DNA of 32,000 nt from Candidatus Electronema halotolerans (GCA_942493095.1 OW818675.1:1140001-1172000); one strand, 5' to 3'; counted from the first letter of the stretch, positions 1 through 20,320 are shown. Made by a program: numbers and translations. Notes: a model not told the origin generated them from the sequence alone.

Positions 1-3000
1 AGTGCGCGAGCCGACAGGCCTGCTCATCAAGCTGCTGATAGGTGAGCTGCTCGTCTTTGTGAATGAGGGCCACATTGTCCGGCGATGCCGCAGCCTGCCG
101 CTCGAACAGGTCAAGCAGGGTGCAGTCAGGCGCAGGCCCAGTCTCCGGCGCGCTCCACTGCTCCAGCTGCTCCAGCTCGGCCGCAGTGAGCATGGGCAGC
201 CGACTGACCGACTGACGCGGATCTGCGGCTATGCCTTGCAGCAAAATTTCAAAGCGTTCAGCAATGCGGGCCACTGTCTCTTTTTCAAACAGGTCAGCAG
301 CATACTCCCAGCGGCAGAGGAGCTGATCACCTTTGCCCTCCACGCTTAAAGTCAGATCAAATTTCGCCGCCGAGTTGCCAGTTTCCAAAAAATTGACCTT
401 CAGCTCCGGCAGGGCCAAGTCTGGAACTTCGTTGTTTTGCAGGACAAACATGACCTGAAAGAGCGGGCTGTGACTCATGCTCCTGACAGGCTGCAGCTCC
501 TCCACCAGTATTTCAAAGGGAATGTCCTGATGGGCATAGGCGGAGAGACAGGAGCGGCGGACCGCCCTGAGCAGCTCATTGAAGGACTGCTCAGGTGCTG
601 TTTGGGCGCGCAGCACCAAGGTGTTGACAAAGAAGCCGATCAAATCCTCGGTCTGACTGTGCCGCCGTCCGGCAATCGGGCTGCCCACGCAGATGTCGTT
701 CTGACCGCTGTGCCGGGCCAGCAGGACATTGAAGGCGGCGAGCAGCACCATGAACAGTGTTGAACTTTGCTCCCTGCTTAGGTCGGCAAGGCTTTGGCTC
801 AGTGCCGGCGGCAGCGGACGGATGTGCTGGCCGCCCTGAGAGCTGCGTCTGGAAGGGCGGGGCTTGTCGGTCGGCAGTTCGAGCAGCTCCGGCACTCCGG
901 CCAGCTCCCTGCGCCAGTAATCGACCTGCTGCTCCAGAATCGGACCATGCAGCCAGCTCCGCTGCCAAGCCGCATAGTCAGGGTATTCAATGGTGAGTTC
1001 CGGCAGAGCGGACTCTTTATTTTGGCTGAGGGCGGTGTAGGTCTCCTGCCAGTCCCGGAGAAAAATGGCCATGGACCAGCCGTCGCTGACAACATGGTGC
1101 ATGTTGAGGAGCAATACCGACCGCTGCTCATCCAGCAGCAGACAGGCGGTTCTGAAGACCGGCCCCTGCGCCAGATCAAACTGCGCGGCAGCATGAGCGT
1201 CTGTCTGTCTGATGACTTCCGCCGCCTGCATGTCCTGATTCAGGCTCCGCAGGTCATGCAGCTCCAAGGCAAACATCTCTTCAACCTGTTTGATCGTGGT
1301 GTATGGCCTGCCATCCTGCATGACAAAGCAGGTGCGGAGGCTGGCATGACGCTCCACCATCAAGCGCAGGCTCTGCTCCAGCAGACGCAGGTCGAGCCTG
1401 CCCTGCATTTCCAAGGCAATAGGGATGTTGTAGGCAGGGTTGCTCTGCTCGTCAAACTGATCCAAGAACCAGAGCCGCTGCTGGGCAAAAGAGAGCTGCT
1501 CAAGGTCTTGCGCCGATTTTTTGCTGATCGGCGGCAGGCAGGGCGTTCCTGCGGCCTGCTCAATGGCGGCGGCCAAGTCTTTGAGCTGCGGATTGCTGAA
1601 CACGGCCCGGAGCGGCAGCTCGACCTGAAAGCTTTCCCGGATGCGGGAAACTAACCGCATGGCGAGCAGCGAATTGCCGCCCAGATCAAAAAAATTGTCA
1701 CTGCGGCCCACAGCACCGCATCGCAATAAATCAGCCCACAACTCAGCCAAAAGCTCTTCTTCCGGGCCGAGAGGATGTTCCTCGCTGCTCTTGCTGCTGA
1801 GTTCCGGCTCAGGCAGGGCCTTGCGGTCAATTTTGCCGTTCGGAGTCAGCGGCATGGCCTCCATGAGAATGAATGCCGCCGGAACCATGTAGTCCGGCAG
1901 GGTCTTCTTGATGAAAGCGCGCAGCTCCGCAGGCAGCTGCAGCCTGTCCGCGTCCTCCTGATACGGGGTGTTGGCATAGCTGGGCCAAAGTCTTGGCGCG
2001 GTGCAGTCTTGGGCGGCAAAGCGCGGCAGGGAACCGGAGGGCTGGAAAACCGCAGCATAGGTTGTGCAAGAGCCGCTCAAGACAAGATGGCATCTGTATG
2101 GCGAGCCATGCGCGGCTTGGCGCAGTGCTTCCGGCTCAATGCCTTGCGCAAGGCCCGCTGTCCGCTCCCGCAGATACTGCACAGTGCCCTCTGGCTGCGC
2201 AAAACTGGCGGCCAGCTGCTCCTCAAGGGCGAGGCGGGCATTGGGAATATTTGTCAGAACAATAGGTTGATTCGCATAATTTTCTTGAAGAAGCTGACTT
2301 GTCCGCTCCAGATTAAATTTTTCCTGCTGCCAGTCCAAGGCAAGCGGCGCAGCTTCTTCTTGCGCCTCGTCATCCAAATGCAGGGTCACGTCATAACGGA
2401 ACTTGTTCATTTCGTTTTGAGCAGTTCCGGCCTTAACATGCAGGCGCACCTGTTTGATGCGCGGAGAAATATGTTTCAGCGCGGCAAAAAAATCAGGATC
2501 AATGAGCAGCTCCCGCTCTTTTTGCAGGGACTGCGCTGTCCGCTGTTTCAGCTCGGCAACAGGAAGCGTGTCGTCAGCCTGATGAAACTGCACTGAGGCA
2601 TGAAAGGCTTCAAGAAGCTGAAAATTGCGGACATCGCCGATAAACACCGCTCCGCCGGGCGCAGTGGCGGCGATGGCTTTGGTCAGCACGGTGATCAAAT
2701 ATTGAACTGAAGGAAAATACTGAATAACCGAGTTGATGACCACTGTGTCGGCGGAGCCGGGGGCAATGCTGTCAAGATTGTCAGCCGCGCTTTGGATCAA
2801 GGTGATTTTTGCCGCCGCTTCCCAGTCACTGATCTGCTCTTCAATGGAATGCAGGGCCTTCTGAGAGATGTCAATGCCTGTGTAGTGCTGGCAATTCGGC
2901 GCAATGCGGAAGAGCAGCATGCCGGTGCCGCAGCCAATTTCCAGCACCCGCTTGGGAGCGAGCGACATGATCTGGGCAACAGTTCCATCCAGCCATTCCT

Positions 3001-4642
3001 TCATTTCCGCCGCTGCAATCGGCAGGCCGGTGTAGGAGCTGTTCCAGCCGACAATGTTGAAGCCCCGGCCTGCACCGGCGGCAGATTCGCTGTAAGTTTC
3101 ATCAAAAATCTCCTGCCACTGCTCAATCAACTCTTCAGCACCTTGCTCTTGGTTCTCCTTGCTCTTCTCTTTGATCTGCGCAGTGAAATAGGCGGCCAAC
3201 GACTTGTTGTCTCCAGTGCCGAAGACTTTGACCGCCGCCGCTCCCACCGCAGAATGCCGCTGGAGCGCAGCCTCAATTTCTCCCAGCTCCACACGGAAGC
3301 CGCGTATTTTCACCTGCGTGTCTTCACGGCCAATAAACTCGATATTGCCGTCCGGGAGATAGACACCCAAATCACCGGTTCGGTAGAGCCGCTCGCCAGT
3401 CTGCGGATGGGTGATGAAACTGGCCGCAGTCCGCTCCGCATCCTGCCAGTAGCCCATGGCCACGCCGATGCCGCCGATATAAAGATGACCCGGAACAGAC
3501 GGCGGACAGATATTCATCTGTTCATCAAGAACATCGACGGCCTGATTGCGGAGTGCCCTGCCATAAGGAATGCTTTTCCAGCTTGGATTCACCTCTCCAA
3601 TCTGATAACATATAGACCAAATCGAAGCCTCTGTGGCTCCGCCCAGACTCATCACGCAGGCATTTGGCCATAGCTCCCGGATGCGTTCGGGCAGACTGAG
3701 CGGAATCCAGTCGCCGCTCATCATGACTAAGCGCAGCGAGGCTGGCGCCGCTTCCGGCTGGAAGGCCAAATAATCAGTCAGCAGGCCCATCAGGGCCGGG
3801 ACCGTGTTCCAGAGCGTCACTTGATGCTGCTGCATCAGCTCGACCCAATAGGCCGGATCTTTGTCTGATTCCGGTTCTGGAATAACCACAGCCCCGCCGC
3901 TGCTGAGAATGCCGAAGATGTCATAAACCGAAAGATCAAAACTCAGCGAGGACAGAGCCAGCACCCGATCCTGCTCTGTGACATGGAACCGCTCGTTGAT
4001 GTCCTGAACTGTGTTGACCGCGCCCAGATGGTTGATCATCACGCCTTTGGGCTGTCCGGTGGAGCCGGAGGTGAAAATGACATAAGCCAGTTCGTCTGCG
4101 CTGCAAGGCACGGATGGATTTTCAGCAGATGAGGAGGAAAGATCAATTGCATCAAGACAGACGGCTTGGCAGTCCGGCACTGTCTCGGACAGGGAAAGGC
4201 GGGACAGCAACGGGCTGCGGGTCAGGAGAAAAGCGGCTCCGCTGCTGGCTAATATCTGCCGCACCCGCTCAGGCGGATAATTGGGATCAACAGGGACATA
4301 AGCCTTTCCTGTCTTGAGCGTGGCTAAAACGGCAATGACCATTTCCGGCGAACGCTCCAGCAGGATTGCAGCCAAAGGGCTGTCATGTCTTTCCGCAGAC
4401 GGCTCGGCATCAAGCAGGTGATTGGCGAGCAGATTTGCCTGCCTGTTGACTTCTTGATAGCTGAGGGTGCGGTCAGCAAAAATGAGGGCAATATTCTCTG
4501 GCGTTTCCGCCGCCTGCTGTTCAAACAGCTCAAACAGCACCTGAGAGGGATGTTTTGATGTGTTTTCAGTGATCACAACAGACTGCTTCGCCTTTGGCCT
4601 GTTGATTTTTTCTGATTTGCCAACATTCCTCTTGACACCCAT
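1..4642 (-). CDS. Non-ribosomal peptide synthetase, 5' part: A domain interrupted by a methyltransferase, then PCP, C and the start of a second A domain. The 3' end runs off the window.
   Basis: I translated the minus strand by hand from ATG 4642 (GAGG 6 nt upstream). The frame stays open to position 1, which explains its absence from the complete-ORF track. Motifs read directly: A3 AYVIFTSGSTGQPKGV (about 4043-4090); LVMMSGDWIPL...VMSLGGATEASIWS (about 3615-3727); A8 GREDTQVKIRGFRVELGEIE; SAM-binding VLEIGCGTGML (about 2917-2949); A9 LPDYMVP; A10 NGKIDRKAL; PCP DNFFDLGGNSLLA (about 1650-1700); C-domain HHVVSDGWS (about 1079-1105); then a new A-domain N-terminus (LFERQAAASPDNVALI). Confidence 0.9.
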   Translation of the reverse strand, partial: MGVKRNVGKSEKINRPKAKQSVVITENTSKHPSQVLFELFEQQAAETPENIALIFADRTLSYQEVNRQANLLANHLLDAEPSAERHDSPLAAILLERSPEMVIAVLATLKTGKAYVPVDPNYPPERVRQILASSGAAFLLTRSPLLSRLSLSETVPDCQAVCLDAIDLSSSSAENPSVPCSADELAYVIFTSGSTGQPKGVMINHLGAVNTVQDINERFHVTEQDRVLALSSLSFDLSVYDIFGILSSGGAVVIPEPESDKDPAYWVELMQQHQVTLWNTVPALMGLLTDYLAFQPEAAPASLRLVMMSGDWIPLSLPERIRELWPNACVMSLGGATEASIWSICYQIGEVNPSWKSIPYGRALRNQAVDVLDEQMNICPPSVPGHLYIGGIGVAMGYWQDAERTAASFITHPQTGERLYRTGDLGVYLPDGNIEFIGREDTQVKIRGFRVELGEIEAALQRHSAVGAAAVKVFGTGDNKSLAAYFTAQIKEKSKENQEQGAEELIEQWQEIFDETYSESAAGAGRGFNIVGWNSSYTGLPIAAAEMKEWLDGTVAQIMSLAPKRVLEIGCGTGMLLFRIAPNCQHYTGIDISQKALHSIEEQISDWEAAAKITLIQSAADNLDSIAPGSADTVVINSVIQYFPSVQYLITVLTKAIAATAPGGAVFIGDVRNFQLLEAFHASVQFHQADDTLPVAELKQRTAQSLQKERELLIDPDFFAALKHISPRIKQVRLHVKAGTAQNEMNKFRYDVTLHLDDEAQEEAAPLALDWQQEKFNLERTSQLLQENYANQPIVLTNIPNARLALEEQLAASFAQPEGTVQYLRERTAGLAQGIEPEALRQAAHGSPYRCHLVLSGSCTTYAAVFQPSGSLPRFAAQDCTAPRLWPSYANTPYQEDADRLQLPAELRAFIKKTLPDYMVPAAFILMEAMPLTPNGKIDRKALPEPELSSKSSEEHPLGPEEELLAELWADLLRCGAVGRSDNFFDLGGNSLLAMRLVSRIRESFQVELPLRAVFSNPQLKDLAAAIEQAAGTPCLPPISKKSAQDLEQLSFAQQRLWFLDQFDEQSNPAYNIPIALEMQGRLDLRLLEQSLRLMVERHASLRTCFVMQDGRPYTTIKQVEEMFALELHDLRSLNQDMQAAEVIRQTDAHAAAQFDLAQGPVFRTACLLLDEQRSVLLLNMHHVVSDGWSMAIFLRDWQETYTALSQNKESALPELTIEYPDYAAWQRSWLHGPILEQQVDYWRRELAGVPELLELPTDKPRPSRRSSQGGQHIRPLPPALSQSLADLSREQSSTLFMVLLAAFNVLLARHSGQNDICVGSPIAGRRHSQTEDLIGFFVNTLVLRAQTAPEQSFNELLRAVRRSCLSAYAHQDIPFEILVEELQPVRSMSHSPLFQVMFVLQNNEVPDLALPELKVNFLETGNSAAKFDLTLSVEGKGDQLLCRWEYAADLFEKETVARIAERFEILLQGIAADPRQSVSRLPMLTAAELEQLEQWSAPETGPAPDCTLLDLFERQAAASPDNVALIHKDEQLTYQQLDEQACRLAH

Positions 4643-4876: not shown

Positions 4877-5440
4877 GTGGTTGAGGAACAGGCCGTTAAC
4901 GTTGAGAAAAACTCTGCGGATTTTAAAGAGCAGGATGACAGGGCGGACAAATGCGTCATGCGCTACACCTATGGCAGCATGGGCATAGGTCTCATGCCCT
5001 TTCCGCTGGTTGATCTGGCCGCTTTGTCCGCCTTGCAGCTGAAAATGCTCCACAGCTTGGCTGATCTGTATGAGGTCAAGTTCATGGACAACTTGGGCAA
5101 GGCTTCCATCAGCAGTCTTGCTGGCGGCTATCTGCCGGTGGCCAGCACATCAGGCTTGGCCGCAAGTCTGGCAAAATTTGTGCCTGGTGTCGGCTCGTTC
5201 ATGGCATACGGAAGCGCGGTGATGCTGAACGGCGCGGCAACATACGCCATCGGCAAAGTTTTTGCCCAGCATTTCGCTTCCGGCGGCACGTTCCTGACCT
5301 TTGATCCAGAGGCGGTTCGTGAGTACTTTGCCAAGCAGTACGAAAAAGGCAAGGAAGTCGTTTCTTCGTTGAAGAACGATAAAGAAAAAACCGCATCAAC
5401 AGCGGCCAGTTCGACTTCAGCAGCGTCTGCGGCAAAATAA
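4877..5440 (+). CDS. DUF697 (YcjF-like) family membrane-associated protein
   Basis: GTG start preceded by AAGGGAGG. The segment YGSMGIGLMPFPLVDLAALSALQLKMLHSLADLYEV...SLAGGYLP...GSAVMLNGAATYAIGKVF resembles the hydrophobic Gly/Ala-rich DUF697 core as I remember it. The C-terminal tail is Ser/Ala-rich. Confidence 0.5.
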   Translation: MVEEQAVNVEKNSADFKEQDDRADKCVMRYTYGSMGIGLMPFPLVDLAALSALQLKMLHSLADLYEVKFMDNLGKASISSLAGGYLPVASTSGLAASLAKFVPGVGSFMAYGSAVMLNGAATYAIGKVFAQHFASGGTFLTFDPEAVREYFAKQYEKGKEVVSSLKNDKEKTASTAASSTSAASAAK

Positions 5441-5470: not shown

Positions 5471-5674
5471 ATGAAGAAAATGCACGAAAACACTGCCGCG
5501 AAAAACACGGCAGGAAAAAAGGGTCTGCCGGTCAAAAGCAATGTCAAGGCTGGGGACTTCTGGGACAGCCTGCGGTCAATGTCTTCATCCACCTACAACA
5601 CCTTGACTGGAGCGTTGAACGGTGGCTCGTCAGACACTTCCAGTGCTGCCGCGTCCGGAGCATCTGGCAAATAG
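5471..5674 (+). CDS. Small peptide P1 (67 aa), candidate RiPP precursor
   Basis: MKKMHENTAAKNTAGKKGLPVKSNVKAGDFWDSLRSMSSSTYNTLTGALNGGSSDTSSAAASGASGK. It is a paralogue of P2 and P3, with a basic N-terminus, the conserved LPVKSNVKAGDFWD block, an internal GG and a Ser/Ala/Gly-rich tail. Confidence 0.6.
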   Translation: MKKMHENTAAKNTAGKKGLPVKSNVKAGDFWDSLRSMSSSTYNTLTGALNGGSSDTSSAAASGASGK

Positions 5675-5766
5675 CAAGTGTTTTTTACAGCAGCAGCAGA
5701 GTGATCTGAGCTTGACAAAGGATGCTTTGCTGTATCTGCAAATCTCTATTTTTTCAGGAGGACAGC

Positions 5767-5973
5767 ATGAAGAAGATGCAAGCAAAAGGTGCGGCCCGCA
5801 AAGGCGGACTGCCAGTCCGGTCAAACATCAAGGCAGGTGATTTCTGGGATGACATGCGGTCAATGTATTCATCGGCGTACAATAAAGTGGCTGGCCTGAT
5901 GGGCGGAGGTTCATCTGCTTCTGCCGACACAGGCGCAGGCGCAGCCGCTTCCGGCACTCCTGCTGGCAGCTGA
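5767..5973 (+). CDS. Small peptide P2 (68 aa), candidate RiPP precursor
   Basis: ATG at 5767 is preceded by AGGAGG; the track ORF start at 5722 is probably an over-extension. MKKMQAKGAARKGGLPVRSNIKAGDFWDDMRSMYSSAYNKVAGLMGGGSSASADTGAGAAASGTPAGS aligns with P1 along its whole length. Confidence 0.65.
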   Translation: MKKMQAKGAARKGGLPVRSNIKAGDFWDDMRSMYSSAYNKVAGLMGGGSSASADTGAGAAASGTPAGS

Positions 5974-5984
5974 TAAACTGTTTT

Positions 5985-6011
5985 GACAGCAGGTGGTTTC
6001 CGCCTGCTGTC
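5985..6011 (+). terminator. Hairpin after P2 (possible partial terminator or attenuator between precursor genes)
   Basis: gacagcagg (5985-5993) pairs with cctgctgtc (6003-6011) across a 9-nt loop and is followed by AGTTT. The 9-bp stem is perfect but the U-tract is weak. Confidence 0.35.
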
Positions 6012-6054
6012 AGTTTAGCAACTCAATTTCACTTCAATTCCACGGAGGAAAAGC

Positions 6055-6165
6055 ATGAAGAAGGCAGCTAAGGCTCAGAAACCCGTGCAGGACAAAAAGG
6101 TCATGAAAAAAAATGCCTTGATTGTCAAATCAAATGTCAAGGCCGGACGTATCAGGTGGTCATAG
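6055..6165 (+). CDS. Small peptide P3 (36 aa), third and truncated paralogue of P1/P2; not in the ORF track
   Basis: ATG 6055 is preceded by GGAGG (cacGGAGGaaaagcATG). Translation: MKKAAKAQKPVQDKKVMKKNALIVKSNVKAGRIRWS, stop TAG at 6163-6165. It shares the IVKSNVKAG block with P1/P2 and ends 5 residues after it. Confidence 0.55.
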   Translation: MKKAAKAQKPVQDKKVMKKNALIVKSNVKAGRIRWS

Positions 6166-6172
6166 ACACCCC

Positions 6173-6250
6173 CTCCGCCCTAACAGGCGGAGATGCAGTG
6201 TAGAAAAGGAAAGAGAAGTTTTTCTTGTCCCGCTGTTTGCAGCGGGACAA
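6173..6250 (+). promoter_or_regulatory. Two GC-rich hairpins between P3 and the radical SAM gene
   Basis: ctccgcc/ggcggag (6173-6192; 7-bp stem, 6-nt loop) and ttgtcccgctg/cagcgggacaa (6225-6250; 11-bp perfect stem, 4-nt loop). Neither has a clean U-tract. They could act as processing, stability or attenuation elements. Confidence 0.3.
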
Positions 6251-6293
6251 TAGCCCGCTAAAAAAGTCTTTGCAATAAAAAAGATACAAGAGG

Positions 6294-7883
6294 ATGATTA
6301 TGTCTGATGTTATTTATGTCAATTGGGCTAATGAATGTGAATCTAATCATGATGCTTTAGATTTATGTGATTCTACTTGGTACAATAATGATATTGATAG
6401 ATTATTAGAATTGCTAAGTGCAAATGTAGGTGCTGAAACAGAGATATATTTTGGCCCAGAATTTCACAGGGACATTGAAAAACTTGAAAAAGCTGTCTCT
6501 TGGTGCAATGAAAGGAAAAAAATTCCGGCTCTCTTTACATACGGTTTATGGTTTTATGATGATGAACTGTGTGCGCGCACTATCGAGCAAATAAAAAAGA
6601 ATGGTAATTTTAGAATAATAGTTTTGATAGATCGAGATCACGAGCGTTTTTTTTCAGCAAAAAATCTGTCAAATTTTATATGTGAAGCTAAGAAAAAAAA
6701 TATCACTCCAGAAGTGATGTATGTAGCTGATGATGCATCTTTTCCTGTGTATATTTATGAATCAGAGGAAGTCAAAAAAATGATGTCTGTGTATTTCAAC
6801 CGTGCAAGTTCTGGAAGAAAATTTCTTGATAATTTTGCACGAATTGAATCTAAAAGTAAAAATGTAACGAAGCATGATGAGAATATTTCTTCCTCAGATG
6901 CTGCTTCGGAGATAAATTCTGCCAGAAAAAATAATAATATTTACTTTAACAATATTGTTCTTGAGATAACTTACCTTTGCAATTCACAATGTGATCACTG
7001 CTACACAAGTTGTGGTCCTCAAGCTGATCGCACATTAATGCCGCTTGATAAAATTGAACGCACGTTGCTGGAAGCAGCATCCATAGACAGTATAAATAAA
7101 CGATTGCATGTTGCTGGAGGGGAACCAACTCTCTTTTGGAAAGAGATGGAAACTATCCTGTGCGTAGCTCGTGATCTTGGATATAAAAATTCTATTGTTA
7201 CTAACGGTTTTTGGGGGAAAGACCGAGAAAAAGCTAAGAAACTTGTAAAACGGTTAAAAGAGGCCGGGGTAATTGAAATTGAATTAAGTATAGATGCAAT
7301 GCATCAGCAATACACAGGTAATAAATCAATTCATCATATATTAGAGGCTGTCGAAATGTATGGTGGAATAGATATGATACTTAGCTTATGCACTGCTCGA
7401 CATGATAATACTTCAGAAATTCTGCGGCAAATCGACTGCGCACTGTTGAACAATGTCAATATAACTACAAGACAAGTTGTTTCTGTAGGCCGTGCAAAAC
7501 AAACTTTTTCGGAGAGTGATCTTTACTTGGAAGAAGGGATACCGACCGGTTCATGTAACCAATGGCTAAACTTAACAATTACCCCAAATGGAGATGTCTA
7601 TCCTTGTTGTGGAGGAAGTGAATTATGTCCATCTTTACGAATGGGCAATTGTTTTTCTGATAATTTACAGTTTGTATTAGAACAAAGTAAATTTAATTAT
7701 ATGTTACGTGTACTGATCCATGCAGGGCCAGCATATTTTGCAAACATGCTGTTGGATAATGGTTATGGGCATTTGTTACGTCCAACCTATGGAAATTTCT
7801 GCCACCTGTGCAATGATATTTTTTCTGATGAAGAAAAAATGCATATAGTGCAAAAATTATTTAGCAAAAGATTTGACAAATAA
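6294..7883 (+). CDS. Radical SAM / SPASM-domain enzyme with an uncharacterised N-terminal extension of about 215 aa
   Basis: CX3CX2C motif CNSQCDHC at 6978-7001 (Cys229). GGEP-type motif HVAGGEPTLF. The C-terminal Cys-rich auxiliary-cluster region (GSCNQW...NGDVYPCCGGSELC...GNC...FCHLCNDIF, about 7549-7825) is typical of SPASM/twitch domains. An alternative start is ATG 6300, with AAGAGGA 5 nt upstream. The gene is strongly AT-rich. Confidence 0.85.
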   Translation: MIMSDVIYVNWANECESNHDALDLCDSTWYNNDIDRLLELLSANVGAETEIYFGPEFHRDIEKLEKAVSWCNERKKIPALFTYGLWFYDDELCARTIEQIKKNGNFRIIVLIDRDHERFFSAKNLSNFICEAKKKNITPEVMYVADDASFPVYIYESEEVKKMMSVYFNRASSGRKFLDNFARIESKSKNVTKHDENISSSDAASEINSARKNNNIYFNNIVLEITYLCNSQCDHCYTSCGPQADRTLMPLDKIERTLLEAASIDSINKRLHVAGGEPTLFWKEMETILCVARDLGYKNSIVTNGFWGKDREKAKKLVKRLKEAGVIEIELSIDAMHQQYTGNKSIHHILEAVEMYGGIDMILSLCTARHDNTSEILRQIDCALLNNVNITTRQVVSVGRAKQTFSESDLYLEEGIPTGSCNQWLNLTITPNGDVYPCCGGSELCPSLRMGNCFSDNLQFVLEQSKFNYMLRVLIHAGPAYFANMLLDNGYGHLLRPTYGNFCHLCNDIFSDEEKMHIVQKLFSKRFDK

Positions 7884-7908
7884 CATATTTTTGTGCAATA
7901 ATCATATT

Positions 7909-9234
7909 ATGCGATGTCACATAAAGATTATTCTGCTCGCGCATTGTTTTCTTTTAGTTCTTCTGGCTGTGTTAATTTTTTATATCCAGCATGAAAAACA
8001 ACAAGAGAAAGAACCAAATACTATTTATATAGGAATTGCTTGGGCAGACTATGACAGTTTTATTGATGGGGCCGAATTAGCTGTTTCTGAAGCAACCAAG
8101 GCTGGAGGTGTGCTGGATAAAAAAATTCAATTGGTGATCAATACGGATGAATCTGAGGCCGTAGCCATGCTGAAAAAAGAATCGTCCATTCTGATCGGCG
8201 ACCGCATTAAAGAACCATCACGAAAAGTTGCCCGTTATTTTGCCGACTACTCTCCAAAAATTACAGCAGTCATTGGTCATGGATACTCATTCATGGCAGT
8301 GTCGGCAGCAAGTCTGTATCAGCAAAAAAAAATAGTTTTTATTACTCCCAGCGCGACGAATGGTATCCTGACGAGCATGGGTTTTACTTATGTTTTTAGA
8401 ATGATGCCGAAAAACAGCGCGCAGGGTTACCAGCTTGGCAAGTACAGTGTTGCAAAGAAAATTAAAAGAGCTGTAGTGTTTTATGAGCGTACTGAATATG
8501 CTTTTGAGCTTGGGCAGGCTTTCCGGCAATTTGCTGCACGCCATGGCATAGATGTAGTTCTTCAATTTCCATTCCTGCAAATGAAAAACGAATTCACCGA
8601 ACTGCCCGGATGTGTTGCTGAAACAAAGAAAATACATAAAGAAAGTCCTGTTGATGCAGTATTTATATTTACAGGAGGATCTCTGGCAAAAAAAATAATT
8701 CATGAATTTTACAAGAGAAATGTTAACGATGTGCAGTTCATAGCTGGAGAAAGTGCTAATGATGAAGAGTTCTGGGATGAAGTCAAACTACTACAGGGCG
8801 AATCAGGAAAACCTGCTGCAGCAAGCACGCCAAGTATATTTAACAGTAATAATACAGATACTCTTGTGCAAAATTTCAAGAAAAACTTTACAGAAACATA
8901 CAGTCAGGAGCCAGATTATGTTGCCGCGCTCGGGTATGATTCAATTAACGTTATTATCAACGCAATCAAAAATGCAGGCAGCAGTGACTCTGCTGATGTT
9001 GCAAATGAAATTAGATACATGTATCCATGCCGGGGCGTGACAGGAAGAATTGCCTTTGATGAAAACGGCGACCCAGATGATAAATTGTATCTGATCAGAA
9101 GCACTGCCGGAAACGATTTTGAATATCATGATTTAAACGGCAATATTATTGAACGGTTTGATGCTGAAACAGAAGGCCTGCCTGAATGCACAGCCATATT
9201 TAAAGCAATCAGCACGTCCTCTTCATCTGACTGA
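7909..9234 (+). CDS. Membrane-anchored type-I periplasmic-binding-fold protein (Leu/Ile/Val-binding, Peripla_BP_6-like)
   Basis: ATG 7909 gives an N-terminal anchor MRCHIKIILLAHCFLLVLLAVLIFYI. The body (IYIGIAWADYDSFIDGAELAVSEA...LVINTDES...VIGHGYSFMAVSAASLYQQKKIVFITPSATN...FRMMPKNSAQGYQLGKY...AVVFYERTEYAFELGQAF) follows the pattern of branched-chain amino-acid ABC substrate-binding proteins. The TTG 7873 start in the track overlaps the rSAM gene and is less likely. Confidence 0.65.
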   Translation: MRCHIKIILLAHCFLLVLLAVLIFYIQHEKQQEKEPNTIYIGIAWADYDSFIDGAELAVSEATKAGGVLDKKIQLVINTDESEAVAMLKKESSILIGDRIKEPSRKVARYFADYSPKITAVIGHGYSFMAVSAASLYQQKKIVFITPSATNGILTSMGFTYVFRMMPKNSAQGYQLGKYSVAKKIKRAVVFYERTEYAFELGQAFRQFAARHGIDVVLQFPFLQMKNEFTELPGCVAETKKIHKESPVDAVFIFTGGSLAKKIIHEFYKRNVNDVQFIAGESANDEEFWDEVKLLQGESGKPAAASTPSIFNSNNTDTLVQNFKKNFTETYSQEPDYVAALGYDSINVIINAIKNAGSSDSADVANEIRYMYPCRGVTGRIAFDENGDPDDKLYLIRSTAGNDFEYHDLNGNIIERFDAETEGLPECTAIFKAISTSSSSD

Positions 9235-9393: not shown

Positions 9394-9999
9394 ATGAAAA
9401 AGTTTGCTTTGAAACTCTCAGCAGCGGCACTATGCTTTTTAGCAACTGCTAATTTGGCAGCAGCGGCATCCTCTGGACACAAGGAAACTCGCCAGCTTGA
9501 TCCTGTCCTTCTGAAGACTGTTGGTCAGGCTTTACTCGAAAGGCAGCAGGTAGAGATCGAAAAAAGATACCCTGCCATGCTGTTTAAGCCAGAAATGATG
9601 AACAAAATGATGGGCGAGCTGGCCTTGCAGACTTCCATGCAGAATGCTGTCCAGCCAGTCATCATGAATATGGTTATGGGAATACTTACGAACAACGGTC
9701 AAGGACAGCAAGATGCTGTGAGTAACTTTGCTAACCTGCGTGAACAGATTGTTAAAACACAGCAGGAAGCCATGATGAATATGCATGCACAGGCTCCAAT
9801 GCAAAGTCAGATGCGGGAGAAGATGGTAAATGCAATAGCCCCAACAGGATATTTGCAGGATATATTCATGCCGAGACAGAAGGCTATGACACAAGGGGAG
9901 TTCCATGCTGGCTTTTTTCTACAAGAGCAGATGAAGACAAACCCGGTGCCTCTGCCGGGAATAGAACCGGTGCCTCCACAGTATCCACCGAAAAAATAA
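9394..9999 (+). CDS. Secreted Met/Gln-rich protein of unknown function
   Basis: Signal peptide MKKFALKLSAAALCFLATANLAAAA. The mature part is unusually rich in Met and Gln (MMNKMMGELALQTSMQNAVQPVIMNMVMG...QQEAMMNMHAQAPMQSQMREKM). I recognise no family. Confidence 0.6.
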   Translation: MKKFALKLSAAALCFLATANLAAAASSGHKETRQLDPVLLKTVGQALLERQQVEIEKRYPAMLFKPEMMNKMMGELALQTSMQNAVQPVIMNMVMGILTNNGQGQQDAVSNFANLREQIVKTQQEAMMNMHAQAPMQSQMREKMVNAIAPTGYLQDIFMPRQKAMTQGEFHAGFFLQEQMKTNPVPLPGIEPVPPQYPPKK

Positions 10000-10215: not shown

Positions 10216-10647
10216 ATGAAAATATATTCTACAGCAATAATCCTGTTTTCTTTGTTAGTCAGTAGCACTGCCGTTTTTTCTGCCCCGATTTTTTCTCCTC
10301 ATGTCTGTAGTGGATATAACCAAAAAGGTGGCTCTTGTGTCGCCTCTTGCAAAGCTGGTGAAATTTCAGTATGTCGTGATGCTTCTGATGCAAACGATCC
10401 GCAATGCTATTGCAAAGCAGGAAATAGTGATCGTTCGTTTAATGGTTTTTTGGATAGCCTGAAAATTGAAGCAATCAAAGACAATAACCATTCGCTAGCT
10501 GTTGTTGCAGATATCATTTTACAGGCAGACAGAGACCTTTTTCCTGAAGGAGAAAGGCTGGTGGCCGCTACAGCTCTATGCGATGCCCGACCACCAGAAC
10601 CTCTATACTGCTCAATAAGACTTCCCGATGTGCTGCCATTGCCATAG
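10216..10647 (+). CDS. Secreted Cys-rich protein of unknown function
   Basis: Signal peptide MKIYSTAIILFSLLVSSTAVFSA. The N-terminal module has 7 Cys in about 40 aa (HVCSGYNQKGGSCVASCKAGEISVCRDASDANDPQCYCKAGN). I recognise no family. Confidence 0.55.
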   Translation: MKIYSTAIILFSLLVSSTAVFSAPIFSPHVCSGYNQKGGSCVASCKAGEISVCRDASDANDPQCYCKAGNSDRSFNGFLDSLKIEAIKDNNHSLAVVADIILQADRDLFPEGERLVAATALCDARPPEPLYCSIRLPDVLPLP

Positions 10648-10814: not shown

Positions 10815-11336
10815 ATGCCAACGCCTTTCTCGCAGACTGCCCAAGCCCTGCAAGCAGATCAGGGACGTTTCAGTTTGCTGAGTTTAAGTGTCGCTGTTGT
10901 GATTCTCCTGCTCTGGTGCTGGTGGCTGTTTTATGCGCCTGTCTATCTTTCTGTCAGCAGCACCCAGCTGCACGTGACCTCAGTCGAGCAGCCGACATGG
11001 AAGCTGTCTGAGGGCAGTGGACGGCCAGCAGCGTACCAACAGTATGAAGTGCAGGCGCAGTTCACTCCGGCAGATGCGGCCAACATTAAGGTCGGGCAAG
11101 CGGCAAAGCTGTTTCTGCGCAGCTCAGACACCCTGCCACGACGGCCTCTGCCAGCAATTGTGGCGCAGGTGCAGGCGGACAAGGGGCTTGTCTCTCTCAG
11201 GCTGGAGCTGCCGCAGGAAACCTCAGCCAAGACCTTGGCAGGGACAACCGTTGAGCGGGCCGAAATAGCGATTGCCAAGACATCGCCGGTGAATTTTCTG
11301 CTCCACACTTCATTCGGCATCAAGGCAGTTGACTGA
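10815..11336 (+). CDS. Miniature HlyD-family membrane fusion / secretion accessory protein (173 aa)
   Basis: The N-terminus FSQTAQALQADQGRFSLLSL plus one TM helix (VAVVILLLWCWWLFYAPV) matches the HlyD-type start. The C-terminus (GQAAKLFLRS...AIVAQVQAD...VSLRLELP...VERAEIAIAKTSPVNFLL) matches the HlyD beta-barrel end. The central coiled-coil/lipoyl region seems absent. The stop is 3 nt before the PCAT start. Confidence 0.55.
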   Translation: MPTPFSQTAQALQADQGRFSLLSLSVAVVILLLWCWWLFYAPVYLSVSSTQLHVTSVEQPTWKLSEGSGRPAAYQQYEVQAQFTPADAANIKVGQAAKLFLRSSDTLPRRPLPAIVAQVQADKGLVSLRLELPQETSAKTLAGTTVERAEIAIAKTSPVNFLLHTSFGIKAVD

Positions 11337-16174: not shown

Positions 16175-16184
16175 TGGTTGCAAG

Positions 16185-18290: not shown

Positions 18291-18308
18291 AAACAAGGGG
18301 AGAAGAAG

Positions 18309-19268
18309 ATGAAAAGGCATGTTTCGTATGGAGTATTGGCTGTGCTGTGTGCAATGTCCTTCAATGCGGCGGCATTTGCAGAAGAGATGAAGCAGGAGGC
18401 GCAAACAGCGTCGGCTGATGAGGGCTGGCTTTCCAACGGGGCGGCACTTGGTGTTCCTTGGTGGACAAAGAATCCGAAAAAGCTGGCCTTTATTCCAGAG
18501 CCGCTTCTGTATCATGTTGAACTCAGTTATTCCTACTCCAAAACATCCGGCAATACAGATGTTGAGGATCAGTCTGGCTCAGGAACGCTTTACCTGCGGA
18601 AAAATATAGTCAGCAGCGAGACCTATTTCGATGTCAGCAAAAACGAAACCACGGACAATTTTTCCAGTGCTGACGCAGCCCCTTTTGTGGTGGAAAGTCA
18701 GACCTTCGGACAGGAACTCATCTGGTCCGTAACCGATGTCATCTCTTTGCTGGGCGGTGGTCTCTGGCGGGAGAACGATTCGCAGCGGTATATTGACAGC
18801 AGTCAGACGTACTATGCTGGCGCCCGCACTCGAGTGCTGGACACACCGCAATTCAACCTGAGCCTGACAGCCGCTTACGGCTATATGGACTCATCCTATC
18901 AAAACGACAGAATCACCGCTGTCTATAGTGATTTTCAGCCGGTTGACGACTACGACTCCGGGGTGCTCAATTTCAATGTTGATTTCCGCTGGATGATTAC
19001 GGACAAGATCACCTTTTCAGAGAGTGCGACCTATCTGCATGACATAGACAACACTGACTACTACTGGCTGAATTCAACCAGCAAGCTGGACTTTAAAATT
19101 ACTGACAATCTTTCTTTCTTCACGGAATACAACTGCATTGCCTACCAAAGTCCGCTGATTGAACAAGCGCAGGATTTCCTTGATGCCAAACGGGCGCAAG
19201 GAATCGCGGCTGGCGACATGGAGACAGTGACATCCAAAATCTCCGCAGGAATAACTGTCAGCTTCTGA
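18309..19268 (+). CDS. Outer-membrane beta-barrel protein, DUF481 (YdiY-like) candidate
   Basis: Signal peptide MKRHVSYGVLAVLCAMSFNAAAFA. It shows an alternating-hydrophobic beta-strand pattern. The SYSYSKTSGNTDVEDQSG block resembles the DUF481 SGNT motif. The C-terminus ISAGITVSF ends in Phe, as is typical of OM barrels. Confidence 0.55.
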   Translation: MKRHVSYGVLAVLCAMSFNAAAFAEEMKQEAQTASADEGWLSNGAALGVPWWTKNPKKLAFIPEPLLYHVELSYSYSKTSGNTDVEDQSGSGTLYLRKNIVSSETYFDVSKNETTDNFSSADAAPFVVESQTFGQELIWSVTDVISLLGGGLWRENDSQRYIDSSQTYYAGARTRVLDTPQFNLSLTAAYGYMDSSYQNDRITAVYSDFQPVDDYDSGVLNFNVDFRWMITDKITFSESATYLHDIDNTDYYWLNSTSKLDFKITDNLSFFTEYNCIAYQSPLIEQAQDFLDAKRAQGIAAGDMETVTSKISAGITVSF

Positions 19269-19283
19269 TCATTGTCATCTTCA

Positions 19284-19308
19284 GCGGCATTCTTTGCAAG
19301 AATGCCGC
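19284..19308 (+). terminator. Hairpin terminator candidate after the OM-barrel gene
   Basis: gcggcattctt (19284-19294) pairs perfectly with aagaatgccgc (19298-19308) across a 3-nt loop. A second small hairpin (aagcgg...ccgctt) and T-rich tracts (tattttttcttttttt) follow. Confidence 0.5.
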
Positions 19309-19366
19309 AAGCGGCTCTCCTGATCCGCTTTAAAATCGGCGGATATTTTTTCTTTTTTTGCCAATC

Positions 19367-20212: not shown

Positions 20213-20320
20213 CTGTCTCTGTCCATCCAGCTCGGCATCACGGTCAGATGTCGGCATCTTCGCAACATTTTTTATTTGCGCATTGCCTCCTGAAGACAGG
20301 AGGCAGGAGATTTTTTTGCA

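What the first reader, a model, noticed from the sequence alone, without database searches (positions are those of the whole stretch)
5471..7883. Three paralogous short peptides sharing a KSNVKAG motif next to a radical SAM/SPASM enzyme: candidate uncharacterised RiPP family
P1, P2 and P3 are tandem paralogues.
- P1: MKKMHENTAAKNTAGKKGLPVKSNVKAGDFWDSLRSMSSSTYNTLTGALNGGSSDTSSAAASGASGK
- P2: MKKMQAKGAARKGGLPVRSNIKAGDFWDDMRSMYSSAYNKVAGLMGGGSSASADTGAGAAASGTPAGS
- P3: MKKAAKAQKPVQDKKVMKKNALIVKSNVKAGRIRWS

They lie directly upstream of a CX3CX2C radical SAM enzyme with a Cys-rich SPASM-like C-terminus. A C39-peptidase ABC exporter follows further downstream on the same strand. Multiple precursor paralogues plus an rSAM-SPASM enzyme plus a PCAT is the canonical grammar of rSAM-modified RiPPs. 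However, I cannot match the (L/I)-x-V-(K/R)-S-N-(V/I)-K-A-G block to any named leader family.

Where the core lies is ambiguous, and there are two competing models:
- (a) The KAG block ends the leader. The aromatic segments DFWD(S/D)(L/M)R and RIRWS are then the modified cores, for example by Trp/Phe cyclophane or Lys/Arg-Trp crosslinks.
- (b) The GG in P1/P2 is the cleavage site. The Cys-free Ser/Thr/Ala/Gly tails are then the cores.

The absence of Cys in all three peptides argues against sactipeptide or ranthipeptide chemistry.
Basis: partly seen in the sequence, partly recalled or inferred. Interest (0 to 1): 0.85.

Follow-up and report, generated by a model that had tools for sequence, protein, structure and literature searches.

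The report
Exported-peptide family beside accessory radical-SAM epimerase
The three small peptides are real members of an unnamed family that always sits beside a peptide-cutting exporter, whereas the neighbouring radical SAM enzyme is an optional, EpeE-type epimerase that most relatives lack.

Summary
P1 (5471-5674), P2 (5767-5973) and P3 (6055-6165) are genuine genes under purifying selection in Candidatus Electronema halotolerans. They are followed by a radical SAM gene and, further on, a C39-peptidase ABC exporter.

- The peptide family, an 11-residue block GLxV(K/R)(S/T)N(V/I)KAG followed by variable sequence, has no Pfam or NCBIfam model.
- In Electrothrix, Magnetococcales and Mariprofundales its constant neighbours are a DUF697 protein and a periplasmic binding protein. 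Every locus that reaches far enough also has a HlyD-like stub and the exporter. None of these loci has a radical SAM enzyme.
- The enzyme is an EpeE/YydG-type Cα-epimerase with an extra N-terminal domain. It is not a cyclophane or crosslink former.
- Its distant homologues sit directly downstream of NHLP-clan precursors.
- In the window it occurs together with Met-rich and Cys-rich periplasmic proteins.
- A close relative has none of these three genes. Another keeps only a decayed enzyme remnant while P1-P3 stay intact.

Most likely the peptides are leader-bearing substrates of the exporter, cut at or near KAG. Modification by the enzyme is unproven (about 0.25).

Tandem-cassette relatives of the KAG block in metagenomes are the most novel lead.

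The parts
2..4642 (-). Large NRPS gene (A-MT-T-C...), divergent from the peptide cluster and running off the left end of the window. It is context only. The + strand ORFs at 794-3673 are shadow frames of this gene.
   Evidence: 75% identity over 436 aa to the L002 minus-strand gene. Pfam AMP-binding, Methyltransf, PP-binding and Condensation domains.
4877..5440 (+). DUF697 membrane protein, the constant upstream partner of the peptides.
   Evidence: Pfam DUF697, E = 2e-9. 637 homologues. It lies directly upstream of a family peptide in L002, L005, L014, L016, L017, L018 and L007, and overlaps the peptide gene in L018.
5471..5674 (+). P1, 67 aa: basic N-terminus, then GLPVKSNVKAG, then DFWDSLRSM..., then a Ser/Thr/Ala/Gly tail.
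   Evidence: dN/dS is 0.31 against L005.
5767..5973 (+). P2, 68 aa, with the same architecture as P1. It is the paralogue kept in the single-peptide relative L014.
   Evidence: dN/dS is 0.05-0.19.
5983..6012 (+). Stable stem-loop just after P2.
   Evidence: -25 kcal/mol, z = -5.0, with 0 of 200 shuffles folding as well. The scan did not score it as an intrinsic terminator.
6055..6165 (+). P3, 36 aa: Lys-rich N-terminus, then LIVKSNVKAG, then RIRWS.
   Evidence: The orthologue in L002 has an identical GRIRWS end. dN/dS is 0.075.
6225..6250 (+). Perfect 11-bp stem-loop between P3 and the enzyme gene.
   Evidence: -20.2 kcal/mol, z = -4.7.
6294..7883 (+). Radical SAM enzyme. Residues 1 to about 215 form a beta/alpha domain that has lost the second CX3CX2C seen in distant homologues. 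Residues 215-525 form an EpeE/YydG-type epimerase domain (C229/C233/C236; PCC at 437-439).
7909..9234 (+). Periplasmic binding protein (ANF_receptor / Peripla_BP_6), a constant member of the module. The ORF opens at 7873, but the conserved Met is at 7909.
   Evidence: Orthologues follow the peptide(s) in L002, L014, L016, L017, L018 and L007.
9394..9999 (+). Met-rich protein with a signal peptide; occurs with the enzyme in the window and in L001.
   Evidence: Homologues (39-41% identity) lie next to the enzyme homologue in L001. Absent from L014.
10216..10647 (+). Cys-rich protein with a signal peptide; occurs with the enzyme in the window and in L001.
   Evidence: L001 has two copies, one directly upstream of its enzyme gene. 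Absent from L014.
10815..11336 (+). 173-aa single-pass membrane protein (HlyD-like stub), a constant member of the module.
   Evidence: Orthologues lie directly upstream of the exporter in L014, L016, L017 and L007. No Pfam or NCBIfam hit. The 'HlyD-like' label is my reading of the sequence.
11340..14054 (+). Peptidase-containing ABC exporter with an intact C39 catalytic triad.
   Evidence: 95% identity in L014, 63% in Electrothrix and 54-55% in Magnetococcales.
14078..22387 (+). Extended neighbourhood: three atypical P1B-like ATPases (14078-16174, 16185-18290, 20321-22387), a DUF481 protein (18309-19268) and a sulfotransferase (19358-20212).
   Evidence: ATPase homologues also flank the module in L014 and L007, and lie next to DUF697 in L019.

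Best explanation
P1, P2 and P3 are genuine small genes of an unnamed peptide family. Its hallmark is the block G-L-x-V-(K/R)-(S/T)-N-(V/I)-K-A-G, which closes a basic N-terminal extension.

Everything after the block is the variable, functional part:
- in P1/P2, an amphipathic (D/G)FW(D/E)x(M/L)R(S)(M/L)(Y) segment, with or without a Ser/Thr/Ala/Gly tail;
- in P3, only RIRWS.

Shown: the family's constant genomic partners are as follows.
- A DUF697 membrane protein lies immediately upstream.
- A periplasmic binding protein lies downstream, and is fused to OmpA in Electrothrix.
- Every locus that reaches far enough (L014, L016, L017, L007) also has a 170-aa HlyD-like stub and a C39-peptidase ABC exporter.
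- A second ABC protein and an SPFH protein often accompany them.

Inferred: the peptides are translated, cut at or next to KAG and exported by this machinery, with no obligatory modification. The binding protein and DUF697 are candidate receptor, immunity or chaperone partners.

The radical SAM gene is an EpeE/YydG-type peptide Cα-epimerase carrying an extra N-terminal domain. It is an accessory.
- It lay between P3 and the binding-protein gene in the three-peptide Electronema lineage.
- It has decayed in one relative.
- It is absent from all other lineages examined.
- It occurs together with Met-rich and Cys-rich periplasmic proteins.

Its substrate in this genome is unresolved.
For: Peptide family and its boundary:
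- Homologues are confined to this architecture.
- Across 90 motif instances, conservation falls abruptly after the G of KAG.
- The genes are under purifying selection.

Conserved module without the enzyme:
- L014/L015: exporter 95% identical to the window's.
- Electrothrix communis, L016.
- E. aarhusensis, L017.
- Mariprofundales, L018.
- Magnetococcales, L007.
- tblastn presence/absence matrix.

Exporter competence: the C39 Cys, His and Asp align to PCAT1.

Enzyme identity:
- TIGR04078 scores 152 bits over 302 of 309 model positions.
- EpeE crystal chains match at E = 3e-29, with the PCC motif holding the Cys223 equivalent.
- The AlphaFold model matches EpeE with TM 0.84-0.87.

The enzyme family's usual partner: an NHLP-clan precursor of 143-148 aa lies directly upstream in 4 of 4 distant loci.
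- No such precursor occurs in the window or in L001.
- The KAG peptides are unrelated to it (hhalign probability 1.3%).

Accessory status:
- The enzyme, Met-rich and Cys-rich genes are all present in the window and L001 and all absent in L014.
- L002 keeps P1-P3 intact but only a degraded piece of the enzyme's twitch region. It scores 47 and 54, against 0 of 1000 shuffles reaching those scores.
- In L005, homology to the window stops inside the end of P3.
Against: - Cleavage and export were not observed.
- The motif is Ala/Ser/Val-Gly rather than the canonical Gly-(Gly/Ala/Ser). It lacks Leu-12, Glu-8 and Leu-7 (PMC6363468).
- Its alternating L-x-V-x-(S/T)-x-(V/I)-x-A pattern looks like an amphipathic beta-strand. 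C39 domains are known to bind helical leaders.
- The exporter could serve another cargo.
- In this enzyme family the precursor gene is always the gene immediately upstream, and in the window that gene is P3.
- The enzyme and its L002 remnant occur only in loci that carry all three peptides. The single-peptide relative L014 has no enzyme.
Confidence: 0.55

Rival explanations
1. The reader's pairing is right for this lineage, but with different chemistry. The EpeE-type enzyme was recruited to the module and epimerises Val/Ile (or other) residues of P3 and/or P1/P2 before the exporter removes the leader. The product would be D-amino-acid-containing peptides in a Gram-negative cable bacterium.
For: - The enzyme gene starts 129 bp after P3, on the same strand.
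- In 4 of 4 distant family members the substrate gene is the one directly upstream.
- The L002 remnant shows the enzyme occupied the same slot in another three-peptide lineage.
- The enzyme keeps every residue that is invariant across its family, including the H-donor Cys.
- The block contains V-K-S, as does the epimerised FVKS site of EpeX. This is recalled from the EpeX sequence and is a weak lead only.
Against: - The peptides stay intact and under purifying selection where the enzyme has decayed or is absent.
- The closest enzyme homologue, in L001, has no KAG peptide within 3 kb upstream.
- The VKS residues are just as conserved in genomes that lack the enzyme.
- A strong hairpin separates P3 from the enzyme gene.
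- GC3 is 0.26 for the enzyme against 0.54-0.63 for the peptides.
Confidence: 0.25
2. The enzyme belongs functionally with the Met-rich and Cys-rich signal-peptide proteins found beside it. It modifies one of them before export, as other radical SAM maturases do for periplasmic proteins. Its position next to P3 is incidental.
For: - The three genes are all present in the window and L001 and all absent in L014.
- In L001 a Cys-rich copy is the gene directly upstream of the enzyme, and it is about 150 aa long, like the NHLP-type partners.
- This enzyme clade has lost the N-domain Cys triad that the NHLP-linked relatives keep, which suggests a change of substrate.
Against: - Only two loci support the co-occurrence.
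- Both proteins carry Sec-type signal peptides, by my reading of the sequence.
- Neither resembles any known radical SAM substrate: no Pfam, NCBIfam or PDB hit.
- In the window they are separated from the enzyme gene by the binding-protein gene.
Confidence: 0.25
3. The peptides are not secreted at all. They are small basic proteins that work with the DUF697 membrane protein on the cytoplasmic side. The KAG block would then be a structural beta-strand or binding repeat rather than a leader.
For: - The peptide gene is tightly coupled to DUF697: the gap is 20-90 bp, and there is a 4-nt overlap in L018.
- The block has amphipathic beta-strand periodicity and is repeated in tandem in other small proteins.
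- The motif is not a canonical double-glycine site (PMC6363468).
- DUF697 occurs with the atypical ATPase and no peptide in L019.
Against: - Synteny with an exporter that has an intact C39 triad is conserved across the loci that extend far enough.
- The sequence following KAG is hypervariable in length and composition, including Cys-pair cassettes. That is typical of exported or processed cores and not of structural repeats.
Confidence: 0.2

Closest known systems
Epipeptide system EpeX/EpeE (YydF/YydG) of Bacillus subtilis
   Same: - The enzyme's residues 215-525 align end to end with EpeE (E = 3e-29).
- The fold matches with TM 0.84-0.87.
- CX3CX2C, the twitch-type cysteines and the PCC motif with the Cys223 H-donor equivalent are all present.
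- A small peptide gene lies upstream and an ABC transporter lies in the cluster.
   Different: - Identity is only 22-23%.
- The score is 152 bits against the curated cut-off of 300 for TIGR04078.
- There is an extra N-terminal domain of about 215 aa.
- No EpeP- or EpeAB-type genes are among the scanned neighbours.
- The host is a Desulfobulbaceae cable bacterium, whereas epipeptides are described as restricted to Bacillota (PMC13012085).
- The peptides are not EpeX-like.
Proteusin / NHLP-leader RiPPs (PoyA-PoyD, OspA-OspD)
   Same: Distant full-length homologues of this enzyme sit directly downstream of NHLP-clan precursors with hydrophobic Ala/Gly/Val-rich C-termini. That is the kind of substrate proteusin epimerases act on.
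   Different: [quoted passage not shown]
- No NHLP-clan precursor is in the window or in L001.
- The KAG peptides are unrelated to NHLP leaders.
Double-glycine leader peptides and their peptidase-containing ABC exporters (PCAT1, LahT, ComA; class II bacteriocins and quorum peptides)
   Same: - The C39 domain has an aligned Cys/His/Asp triad.
- An ABC exporter is paired with an adaptor-like stub.
- Small peptide genes lie in conserved synteny.
- The N-terminal extension ends in small residues, with a hydrophobic residue at -4.
   Different: - The site is (A/S/V)-G rather than G-(G/A/S).
- Positions -7 and -8 are K/R and V rather than Leu and Glu, and -12 is variable (PMC6363468).
- The leader is strongly basic.
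- The extra module members (DUF697, an OmpA-linked binding protein, SPFH, atypical P-type ATPases) are not part of known systems.
NHLP/Nif11 bacteriocin export set (TIGR03796 ABC1 + TIGR03797 ABC2 + HlyD)
   Same: The best NCBIfam hit of the exporter is NHLM_micro_ABC1. In Electrothrix a second ABC protein without a peptidase domain follows, and it hits NHLM_micro_ABC2.
   Different: - Scores are far below the curated cut-offs: 163 against 853, and 112 against 709.
- The adaptor is a 170-aa stub with no family hit.
Multi-cassette RiPP precursors such as cyanobactin E-peptides (comparison recalled from general knowledge)
   Same: Metagenomic relatives carry 2-4 tandem units of the conserved block followed by a hypervariable cassette of about 3-15 aa and then NHNQT. 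P3 looks like a single-cassette version (KAG-RIRW against KAG-GIRW, GFKW and GYKW in P0192).
   Different: - No processing enzymes are known for them.
- Their gene neighbourhoods could not be fetched.
- The flanking motifs are unlike cyanobactin recognition sequences.

Membership tests
Epipeptide system (EpeE/YydG + EpeX) | Radical SAM CX3CX2C cluster motif | tested here: met
   C229, C233 and C236 are invariant in the family alignment. Pfam Radical_SAM scores 55.9 bits.
Epipeptide system (EpeE/YydG + EpeX) | EpeE fold, with the twitch-type auxiliary-cluster domain | tested here: met
   phmmer to 8ai1 gives E = 3e-29 over chain residues 25-336. Foldseek gives TM 0.84-0.87 and E about 1e-20, while the next radical SAM fold is at 5e-7.
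Epipeptide system (EpeE/YydG + EpeX) | H-atom donor cysteine (EpeE Cys223) | tested here: met
   YPCC of the query aligns to YPCC of EpeE. C438 and C439 are invariant in 15 homologues. The role of Cys223 is taken from PMC13012085 and PMC8326336.
Epipeptide system (EpeE/YydG + EpeX) | Reaches the curated score of NCBIfam TIGR04078 | tested here: not met
   151.8 bits against a cut-off of 300.
Epipeptide system (EpeE/YydG + EpeX) | EpeX-type precursor, with the EpeP protease and EpeAB transporter as neighbours | tested here: not met
   The family scans of the neighbours gave a binding protein, the C39 exporter and P-type ATPases. The Met-rich and Cys-rich proteins gave no significant hit. P1-P3 hit no family.
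Epipeptide system (EpeE/YydG + EpeX) | Epimerase activity on the peptide | not testable with these tools
   Needs D2O labelling or chiral amino-acid analysis.
Two-domain EpeE-like enzyme + NHLP-clan precursor (the enzyme's own wider family) | Full-length homology, including the N-terminal domain | tested here: met
   33-36% identity over 88-96% of the query to P0003-P0015.
Two-domain EpeE-like enzyme + NHLP-clan precursor (the enzyme's own wider family) | NHLP-clan precursor gene directly upstream | tested here: not met
   Present in L008, L009, L010/L011 and L020. A profile of these precursors finds nothing in the six frames of the window or of L001.
Two-domain EpeE-like enzyme + NHLP-clan precursor (the enzyme's own wider family) | Second CX3CX2C in the N-terminal domain | tested here: not met
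   Most distant homologues have C-x3-C-x2-C near residue 15. The window protein and P0002 have lost it.
Radical-SAM-modified RiPP with these peptides as cognate precursors | Enzyme and precursor co-occur across genomes | tested here: not met
   Peptides occur without the enzyme in L014/15, L016, L017, L018 and L007, and with a remnant only in L002. The enzyme occurs without peptides in L001, L008-L011 and L020.
Double-glycine leader peptide / PCAT substrate | Exporter with a catalytic C39 Cys/His/Asp triad | tested here: met
   Aligned to PCAT1 4ry2: DCG, HF(I/V)V and DPG.
Double-glycine leader peptide / PCAT substrate | Peptide gene in conserved synteny with the exporter | tested here: met
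   Window, L014, L016, L017 and L007.
Double-glycine leader peptide / PCAT substrate | Leader ends in Gly(-2)-Gly/Ala/Ser(-1), with Leu-12, Glu-8, Leu-7 and a hydrophobic residue at -4 | tested here: not met
   Observed: A/S/V(-2), G(-1), V/I(-4), K/R(-7), V(-8), and -12 variable. The canonical motif is taken from PMC6363468. Only the -4 and small-residue features fit.
Double-glycine leader peptide / PCAT substrate | Cleavage and export of the peptide | not testable with these tools
   Needs a protease assay or peptidomics.
Sactipeptide / ranthipeptide | Cys residues in the core for thioether formation | tested here: not met
   There is no Cys in P1, P2 or P3.
Cyclophane or Lys-Trp crosslinked RiPPs (streptide, WGK, triceptides, dynobactin) | Maturase belongs to those enzyme families | tested here: not met
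   WgkB scores 34.6 bits against a cut-off of 650, and DynA 29 against 450. The YydG model scores 151.8 bits.

The most novel reading that the evidence does not exclude
The GLxV(K/R)(S/T)N(V/I)KAG block is the recognition strand of a new, widely distributed class of processed peptides.
- The class ranges from single-cassette forms in cable bacteria, Magnetococcales and Zetaproteobacteria to multi-cassette precursors in soil bacteria (block, then hypervariable cassette, then NHNQT, repeated 2-4 times).
- In the gradient-dwelling bacteria, the single-cassette forms would be the secreted ligand of an uncharacterised envelope module: DUF697, an OmpA-anchored binding protein, an SPFH protein, and atypical P-type ATPases that lack the metal-binding CPC motif.
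- In the Electronema lineage, an EpeE-type epimerase was grafted onto this system. That would give the first epipeptide-like D-amino-acid peptides outside Bacillota.
Probability: 0.2. Interest if true: 0.8.

Novelty: new variant of a known kind. Interest (0 to 1): 0.55.

Why it matters
- If the peptides are cargo of the C39 exporter, this defines an unnamed leader motif for peptide export in Gram-negative bacteria. It also ties a conserved but unstudied envelope module in cable bacteria, magnetotactic cocci and iron-oxidising Zetaproteobacteria to a specific secreted peptide.
- The tandem-cassette relatives would be a fresh source of hypervariable small peptides for genome mining.
- The enzyme family fuses an EpeE-type epimerase to a second radical-SAM-like domain and pairs with NHLP-type precursors. 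That bridges the two known, supposedly unrelated routes to D-amino acids in ribosomal peptides.

Tried and rejected
- Model (b), cleavage at the GG in P1/P2. Rejected because the GG is missing in close P1 orthologues (P0054, P0056, P0058, P0059). It is also missing in the Electrothrix, Magnetococcales and Mariprofundales peptides and in P3.
- Cyclophane or Lys-Trp chemistry. Rejected on enzyme family and fold.
- KAG peptides as degenerate NHLP leaders, suggested by the shared 'FW.D'. hhalign probability is 1.3% with only 5 aligned columns.
- Defining an insertion boundary from the DNA downstream of P3. The P3-proximal intergenic DNA of the window and L002 does not align informatively. The protein-level remnant search did work. 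The KLFSKRF / QLFTKRF match at the very 3' end is not significant alone (86 of 1000 shuffles).
- Low GC as proof of recent transfer of the enzyme. This is weak, because the core binding-protein gene is also low in GC3, both here and in L014.
- Genome and metagenome scans with the peptide profile gave only 1 and 2 loci.
- Searches for the repeat-type peptides:
  - a tblastn against plasmids found nothing;
  - a viral-contig scan gave one out-of-frame hit inside a prolyl-tRNA synthetase gene;
- Literature:
  - motif strings returned only unrelated papers;
  - DUF697 with cable bacteria returned nothing;
  - cable-bacteria terms combined with radical SAM or P-type ATPase returned nothing relevant.
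- No Rfam family is present in the window.
- PDB sequence searches for the Cys-rich and DUF697 proteins found nothing.
- Tyr sulfation by the cluster's sulfotransferase (a RaxX-like idea, recalled from general knowledge). Not pursued, because the sulfotransferase is absent from the other peptide loci and occurs with DUF697 and the ATPase without a peptide in L019.

Full report
**Observation**

The window comes from Candidatus Electronema halotolerans, a cable bacterium. The three peptides are deposited there as hypothetical proteins GCAAIG_05175, 05180 and 05185.

- They have ribosome-binding sites.
- They share 13 invariant columns.
- They contain no Cys.
- dN/dS against orthologues is 0.05-0.31, which indicates coding sequence under purifying selection.
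- Strong stem-loops follow P2 (-25 kcal/mol) and P3 (-20 kcal/mol); no shuffle folds as well as either.

The enzyme ORF (6294-7883) has CX3CX2C and conserved C-terminal cysteines. The ABC exporter at 11340-14054 has a C39 domain whose Cys, His and Asp align to PCAT1.

**What the enzyme is**

Its best family match is the YydG/EpeE peptide epimerase model. It scores 152 bits over nearly the whole model but falls below the curated cut-off of 300. Crosslink-forming maturases score about 30 bits.

- Residues 215-525 align to the EpeE crystal chains at E = 3e-29. The alignment includes the YPCC motif whose second Cys is the H-atom donor Cys223 (role from PMC13012085 and PMC8326336).
- An AlphaFold model (pLDDT 80) matches EpeE structures with TM 0.84-0.87. 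The next radical SAM fold is fourteen orders of magnitude weaker in E-value.
- Residues 1 to about 215 form an added beta/alpha domain. In most distant homologues this domain carries a second CX3CX2C; the window protein and its 63%-identical relative P0002 have lost it.

The predicted chemistry is therefore Cα epimerisation, which is mass-neutral. It is not a cyclophane or a Lys-Trp crosslink.

**What the enzyme family normally acts on**

Full-length homologues at 33-36% identity occur in Streptomyces, Paenibacillus sophorae, a Nitrosocaldaceae archaeon and metagenomes.

- In all four such loci examined, a 143-148-aa gene lies directly upstream, often overlapping the enzyme's start codon.
- These upstream genes are NHLP-clan RiPP precursors with hydrophobic Ala/Gly/Val-rich C-termini. 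One exceeds the TIGR04509 cut-off (36.9 bits against 34), and all hit NF038399 (own profile).
- No such precursor is encoded anywhere in the window or in L001.
- The KAG peptides are not detectably related to them (hhalign probability 1.3%).

**What the peptides travel with**

Every peptide homologue whose context could be read follows a DUF697 gene. I used that gene to reach longer contigs, with these results.

| Locus | Source | Gene order or content |
|---|---|---|
| L014/L015 | close relative (exporter 95%, ATPase 85% identical) | DUF697, one P2-like peptide, binding protein, 173-aa stub, exporter, ATPase; no enzyme, no Met-rich or Cys-rich gene |
| L016 | Electrothrix communis | DUF697, peptide of 46-49 aa, OmpA-linked binding protein, stub, exporter, second ABC protein, SPFH protein |
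| L017 | E. aarhusensis | same order as L016 |
| L018 | Mariprofundales | ABC, SPFH, DUF697 overlapping a 44-aa peptide, binding protein |
| L007 | Magnetococcales | DUF697, 54-aa peptide, binding protein, stub, exporter (54-55% identical), ABC, SPFH |

None of these loci contains a homologue of the enzyme. Conversely, the 63%-identical enzyme in L001 is flanked by homologues of the window's Met-rich and Cys-rich genes and not by KAG peptides.

**History within the Electronema group**

- In L002, DUF697, P1, P2 and P3 are followed about 250 bp later by the start of the binding-protein gene.
- That short spacer encodes SGCVHACCLFS..PFLQLDSFYSDSLE..TLIHTG. This aligns to residues 431-478 of the enzyme with score 47, and to the L001 enzyme with score 54. 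None of 1000 shuffles exceeded 40.
- The enzyme therefore once occupied the same slot in that lineage. It has decayed there, while P1-P3 stayed intact.
- In L005, homology to the window ends inside the 3' end of P3, and P3 ends ...KAGK.
- The enzyme is therefore dispensable for the peptides. Its association with the three-peptide lineage is nevertheless older than a single recent insertion, which keeps the pairing hypothesis alive at modest probability.

**The peptide family itself**

A profile search of 1.84 billion representative proteins found 30 members at E of 1e-3 or better. They fall into three groups.

- Short forms resembling the Electrothrix and Magnetococcales peptides, for example P0187, P0190 and P0199.
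- Forms shaped like P1/P2: GGLPVRTNLRAG, then LAWDDLDDQ..LW, then a Ser/Thr-rich tail.
- Proteins of 55-168 aa that carry 2-4 tandem units of the form [NHNQTVxR]-GL(K/R)V(K/R)(S/T)N(V/I)KAG-[cassette of about 3-15 aa].
  - The cassettes are hypervariable, for example GIRW, GFKW and GYKW in P0192 and Cys-pair cassettes in P0197 and P0207.
  - P3 (KAG-RIRW-S) looks like a one-cassette version.

Across 90 unique instances, information content is 2.1-4.3 bits from -11 to -1 and at most 1.2 bits from +1 onward. Positions -11, -10 and -8 were not used to select the instances, yet they score 3.2-3.6 bits. It argues against model (b), because the GG of P1/P2 is not conserved. No Pfam or NCBIfam model covers any of these peptides.

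**Mechanism**

Shown:
- conserved synteny of the peptide with DUF697 and the binding protein, and with the stub and a catalytically intact C39 exporter in every locus that extends far enough;
- a sharp conservation boundary after KAG.

Inferred:
- the exporter removes the basic N-terminal part at or next to KAG and exports the remainder.

Caveats:
- The site is Ala/Ser/Val-Gly, not the canonical Gly-(Gly/Ala/Ser).
- It lacks Leu-12, Glu-8 and Leu-7 (PMC6363468).
- The block has the alternating pattern of an amphipathic beta-strand, whereas C39 domains bind helical leaders.

A non-secreted role alongside DUF697 therefore remains possible.

The enzyme's substrate in this genome is unresolved. 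Candidates are P3, P1 or P2 (by adjacency and family gene order), the Cys-rich or Met-rich proteins found beside it in both loci that carry it, or a precursor elsewhere in the genome.

**Verdict**

- The sequence observation is correct.
- The interpretation as a radical-SAM RiPP family is only partly supported.
- What stands is an unnamed, conserved family of leader-bearing peptides tied to a peptidase-containing exporter module. An EpeE-type epimerase is an optional passenger.
- I class this as a new variant of a known kind, of moderate interest. The tandem-cassette relatives and the unusual module composition are the most promising leads.

Noticed in passing
L008 5526-7605; L009 5456-7500; L010 5570-7596; L020 4564-6593: A family of two-domain radical SAM enzymes: an EpeE-type epimerase domain plus an N-terminal beta/alpha domain that carries a second CX3CX2C. 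Each sits directly downstream of a 143-148-aa NHLP-clan precursor with a hydrophobic Ala/Gly/Val-rich C-terminus. Members occur in Streptomyces, Paenibacillus sophorae and metagenomes; an archaeal homologue is P0007. The family appears to link the epipeptide and proteusin routes to D-amino acids.
   Followed up: partly
proteins P0182-P0210: Small proteins carry 2-4 tandem copies of the KSNVKAG block. Each copy is followed by a hypervariable cassette of about 3-15 aa and then NHNQT. One is from a Blastocatellia MAG. There is no Pfam or NCBIfam model. Their neighbourhoods could not be fetched.
   Followed up: partly
L002 2734-2875: A degraded remnant of the enzyme's twitch/SPASM region lies between an intact P3 and the binding-protein gene. 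It scores 47-54, and 0 of 1000 shuffles reach that.
   Followed up: yes
window 14078-16174, 16185-18290, 20321-22387: Three paralogous P-type ATPases pass the heavy-metal P1B model cut-off. However, they have no CPC/CPH/SPC motif before DKTG and gave no metal-binding (HMA) domain hit in the Pfam scan. Homologues flank the same module in L014 and L007 and sit next to DUF697 in Thiohalocapsa (L019). Their substrate is unknown.
   Followed up: partly
window 9394-9999 and 10216-10647; L001 70-2931: Met-rich and Cys-rich proteins with signal peptides occur with the enzyme in both loci that carry it. L001 also has an FGE-sulfatase-domain gene among them. They have no family or PDB match.
   Followed up: partly
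window 2-4642 (- strand): A large NRPS gene (adenylation domain with embedded methyltransferase, carrier and condensation domains) runs off the left end of the window, divergent from DUF697. It is shared with L002 at 75% identity. The + strand ORFs at 794-3673 are its shadow frames.
   Followed up: partly
window 7909-9234; L014 10411-11721: The binding-protein gene has unusually low GC3 (0.34 here, 0.32 in L014) against about 0.6-0.7 in its neighbours. It is also more diverged (70% aa) than the flanking genes (82-95%). This suggests a recombination-prone or independently evolving segment.
   Followed up: partly
L014 17100-17146 vs window 22304-22350: After its single ATPase gene, L014 matches the 3' end of the window's third ATPase at 91% over 47 nt. 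The 6-kb stretch with ATPase 2, DUF481, the sulfotransferase and ATPase 3 therefore seems to differ through recombination between paralogues.
   Followed up: no
L012 1145-1396 vs window 13691-13936: This 1.4-kb metagenome contig joins P2 directly to the 3' part of the exporter gene (92% identity). It is either a large deletion or a chimeric assembly.
   Followed up: no
L005 1870-1940: The P3 orthologue ends ...KSNVKAGK, without RIRWS, and its start is in another frame. Homology to the window stops at window position 6146.
   Followed up: no
window 7873-7902: A near-consensus sigma-70-type promoter (TTGACA, 18 nt, AATAAT, with TG; 11 of 12 matches) lies inside the last codons of the enzyme gene, just upstream of the binding-protein start. 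That gene may therefore be transcribed independently.
   Followed up: no
L019 7080-12690: In Thiohalocapsa a close DUF697 homologue is followed directly by an atypical P-type ATPase, with a sulfotransferase and methyltransferases nearby but no peptide, binding protein or exporter. DUF697 may therefore belong primarily with the ATPase.
   Followed up: no
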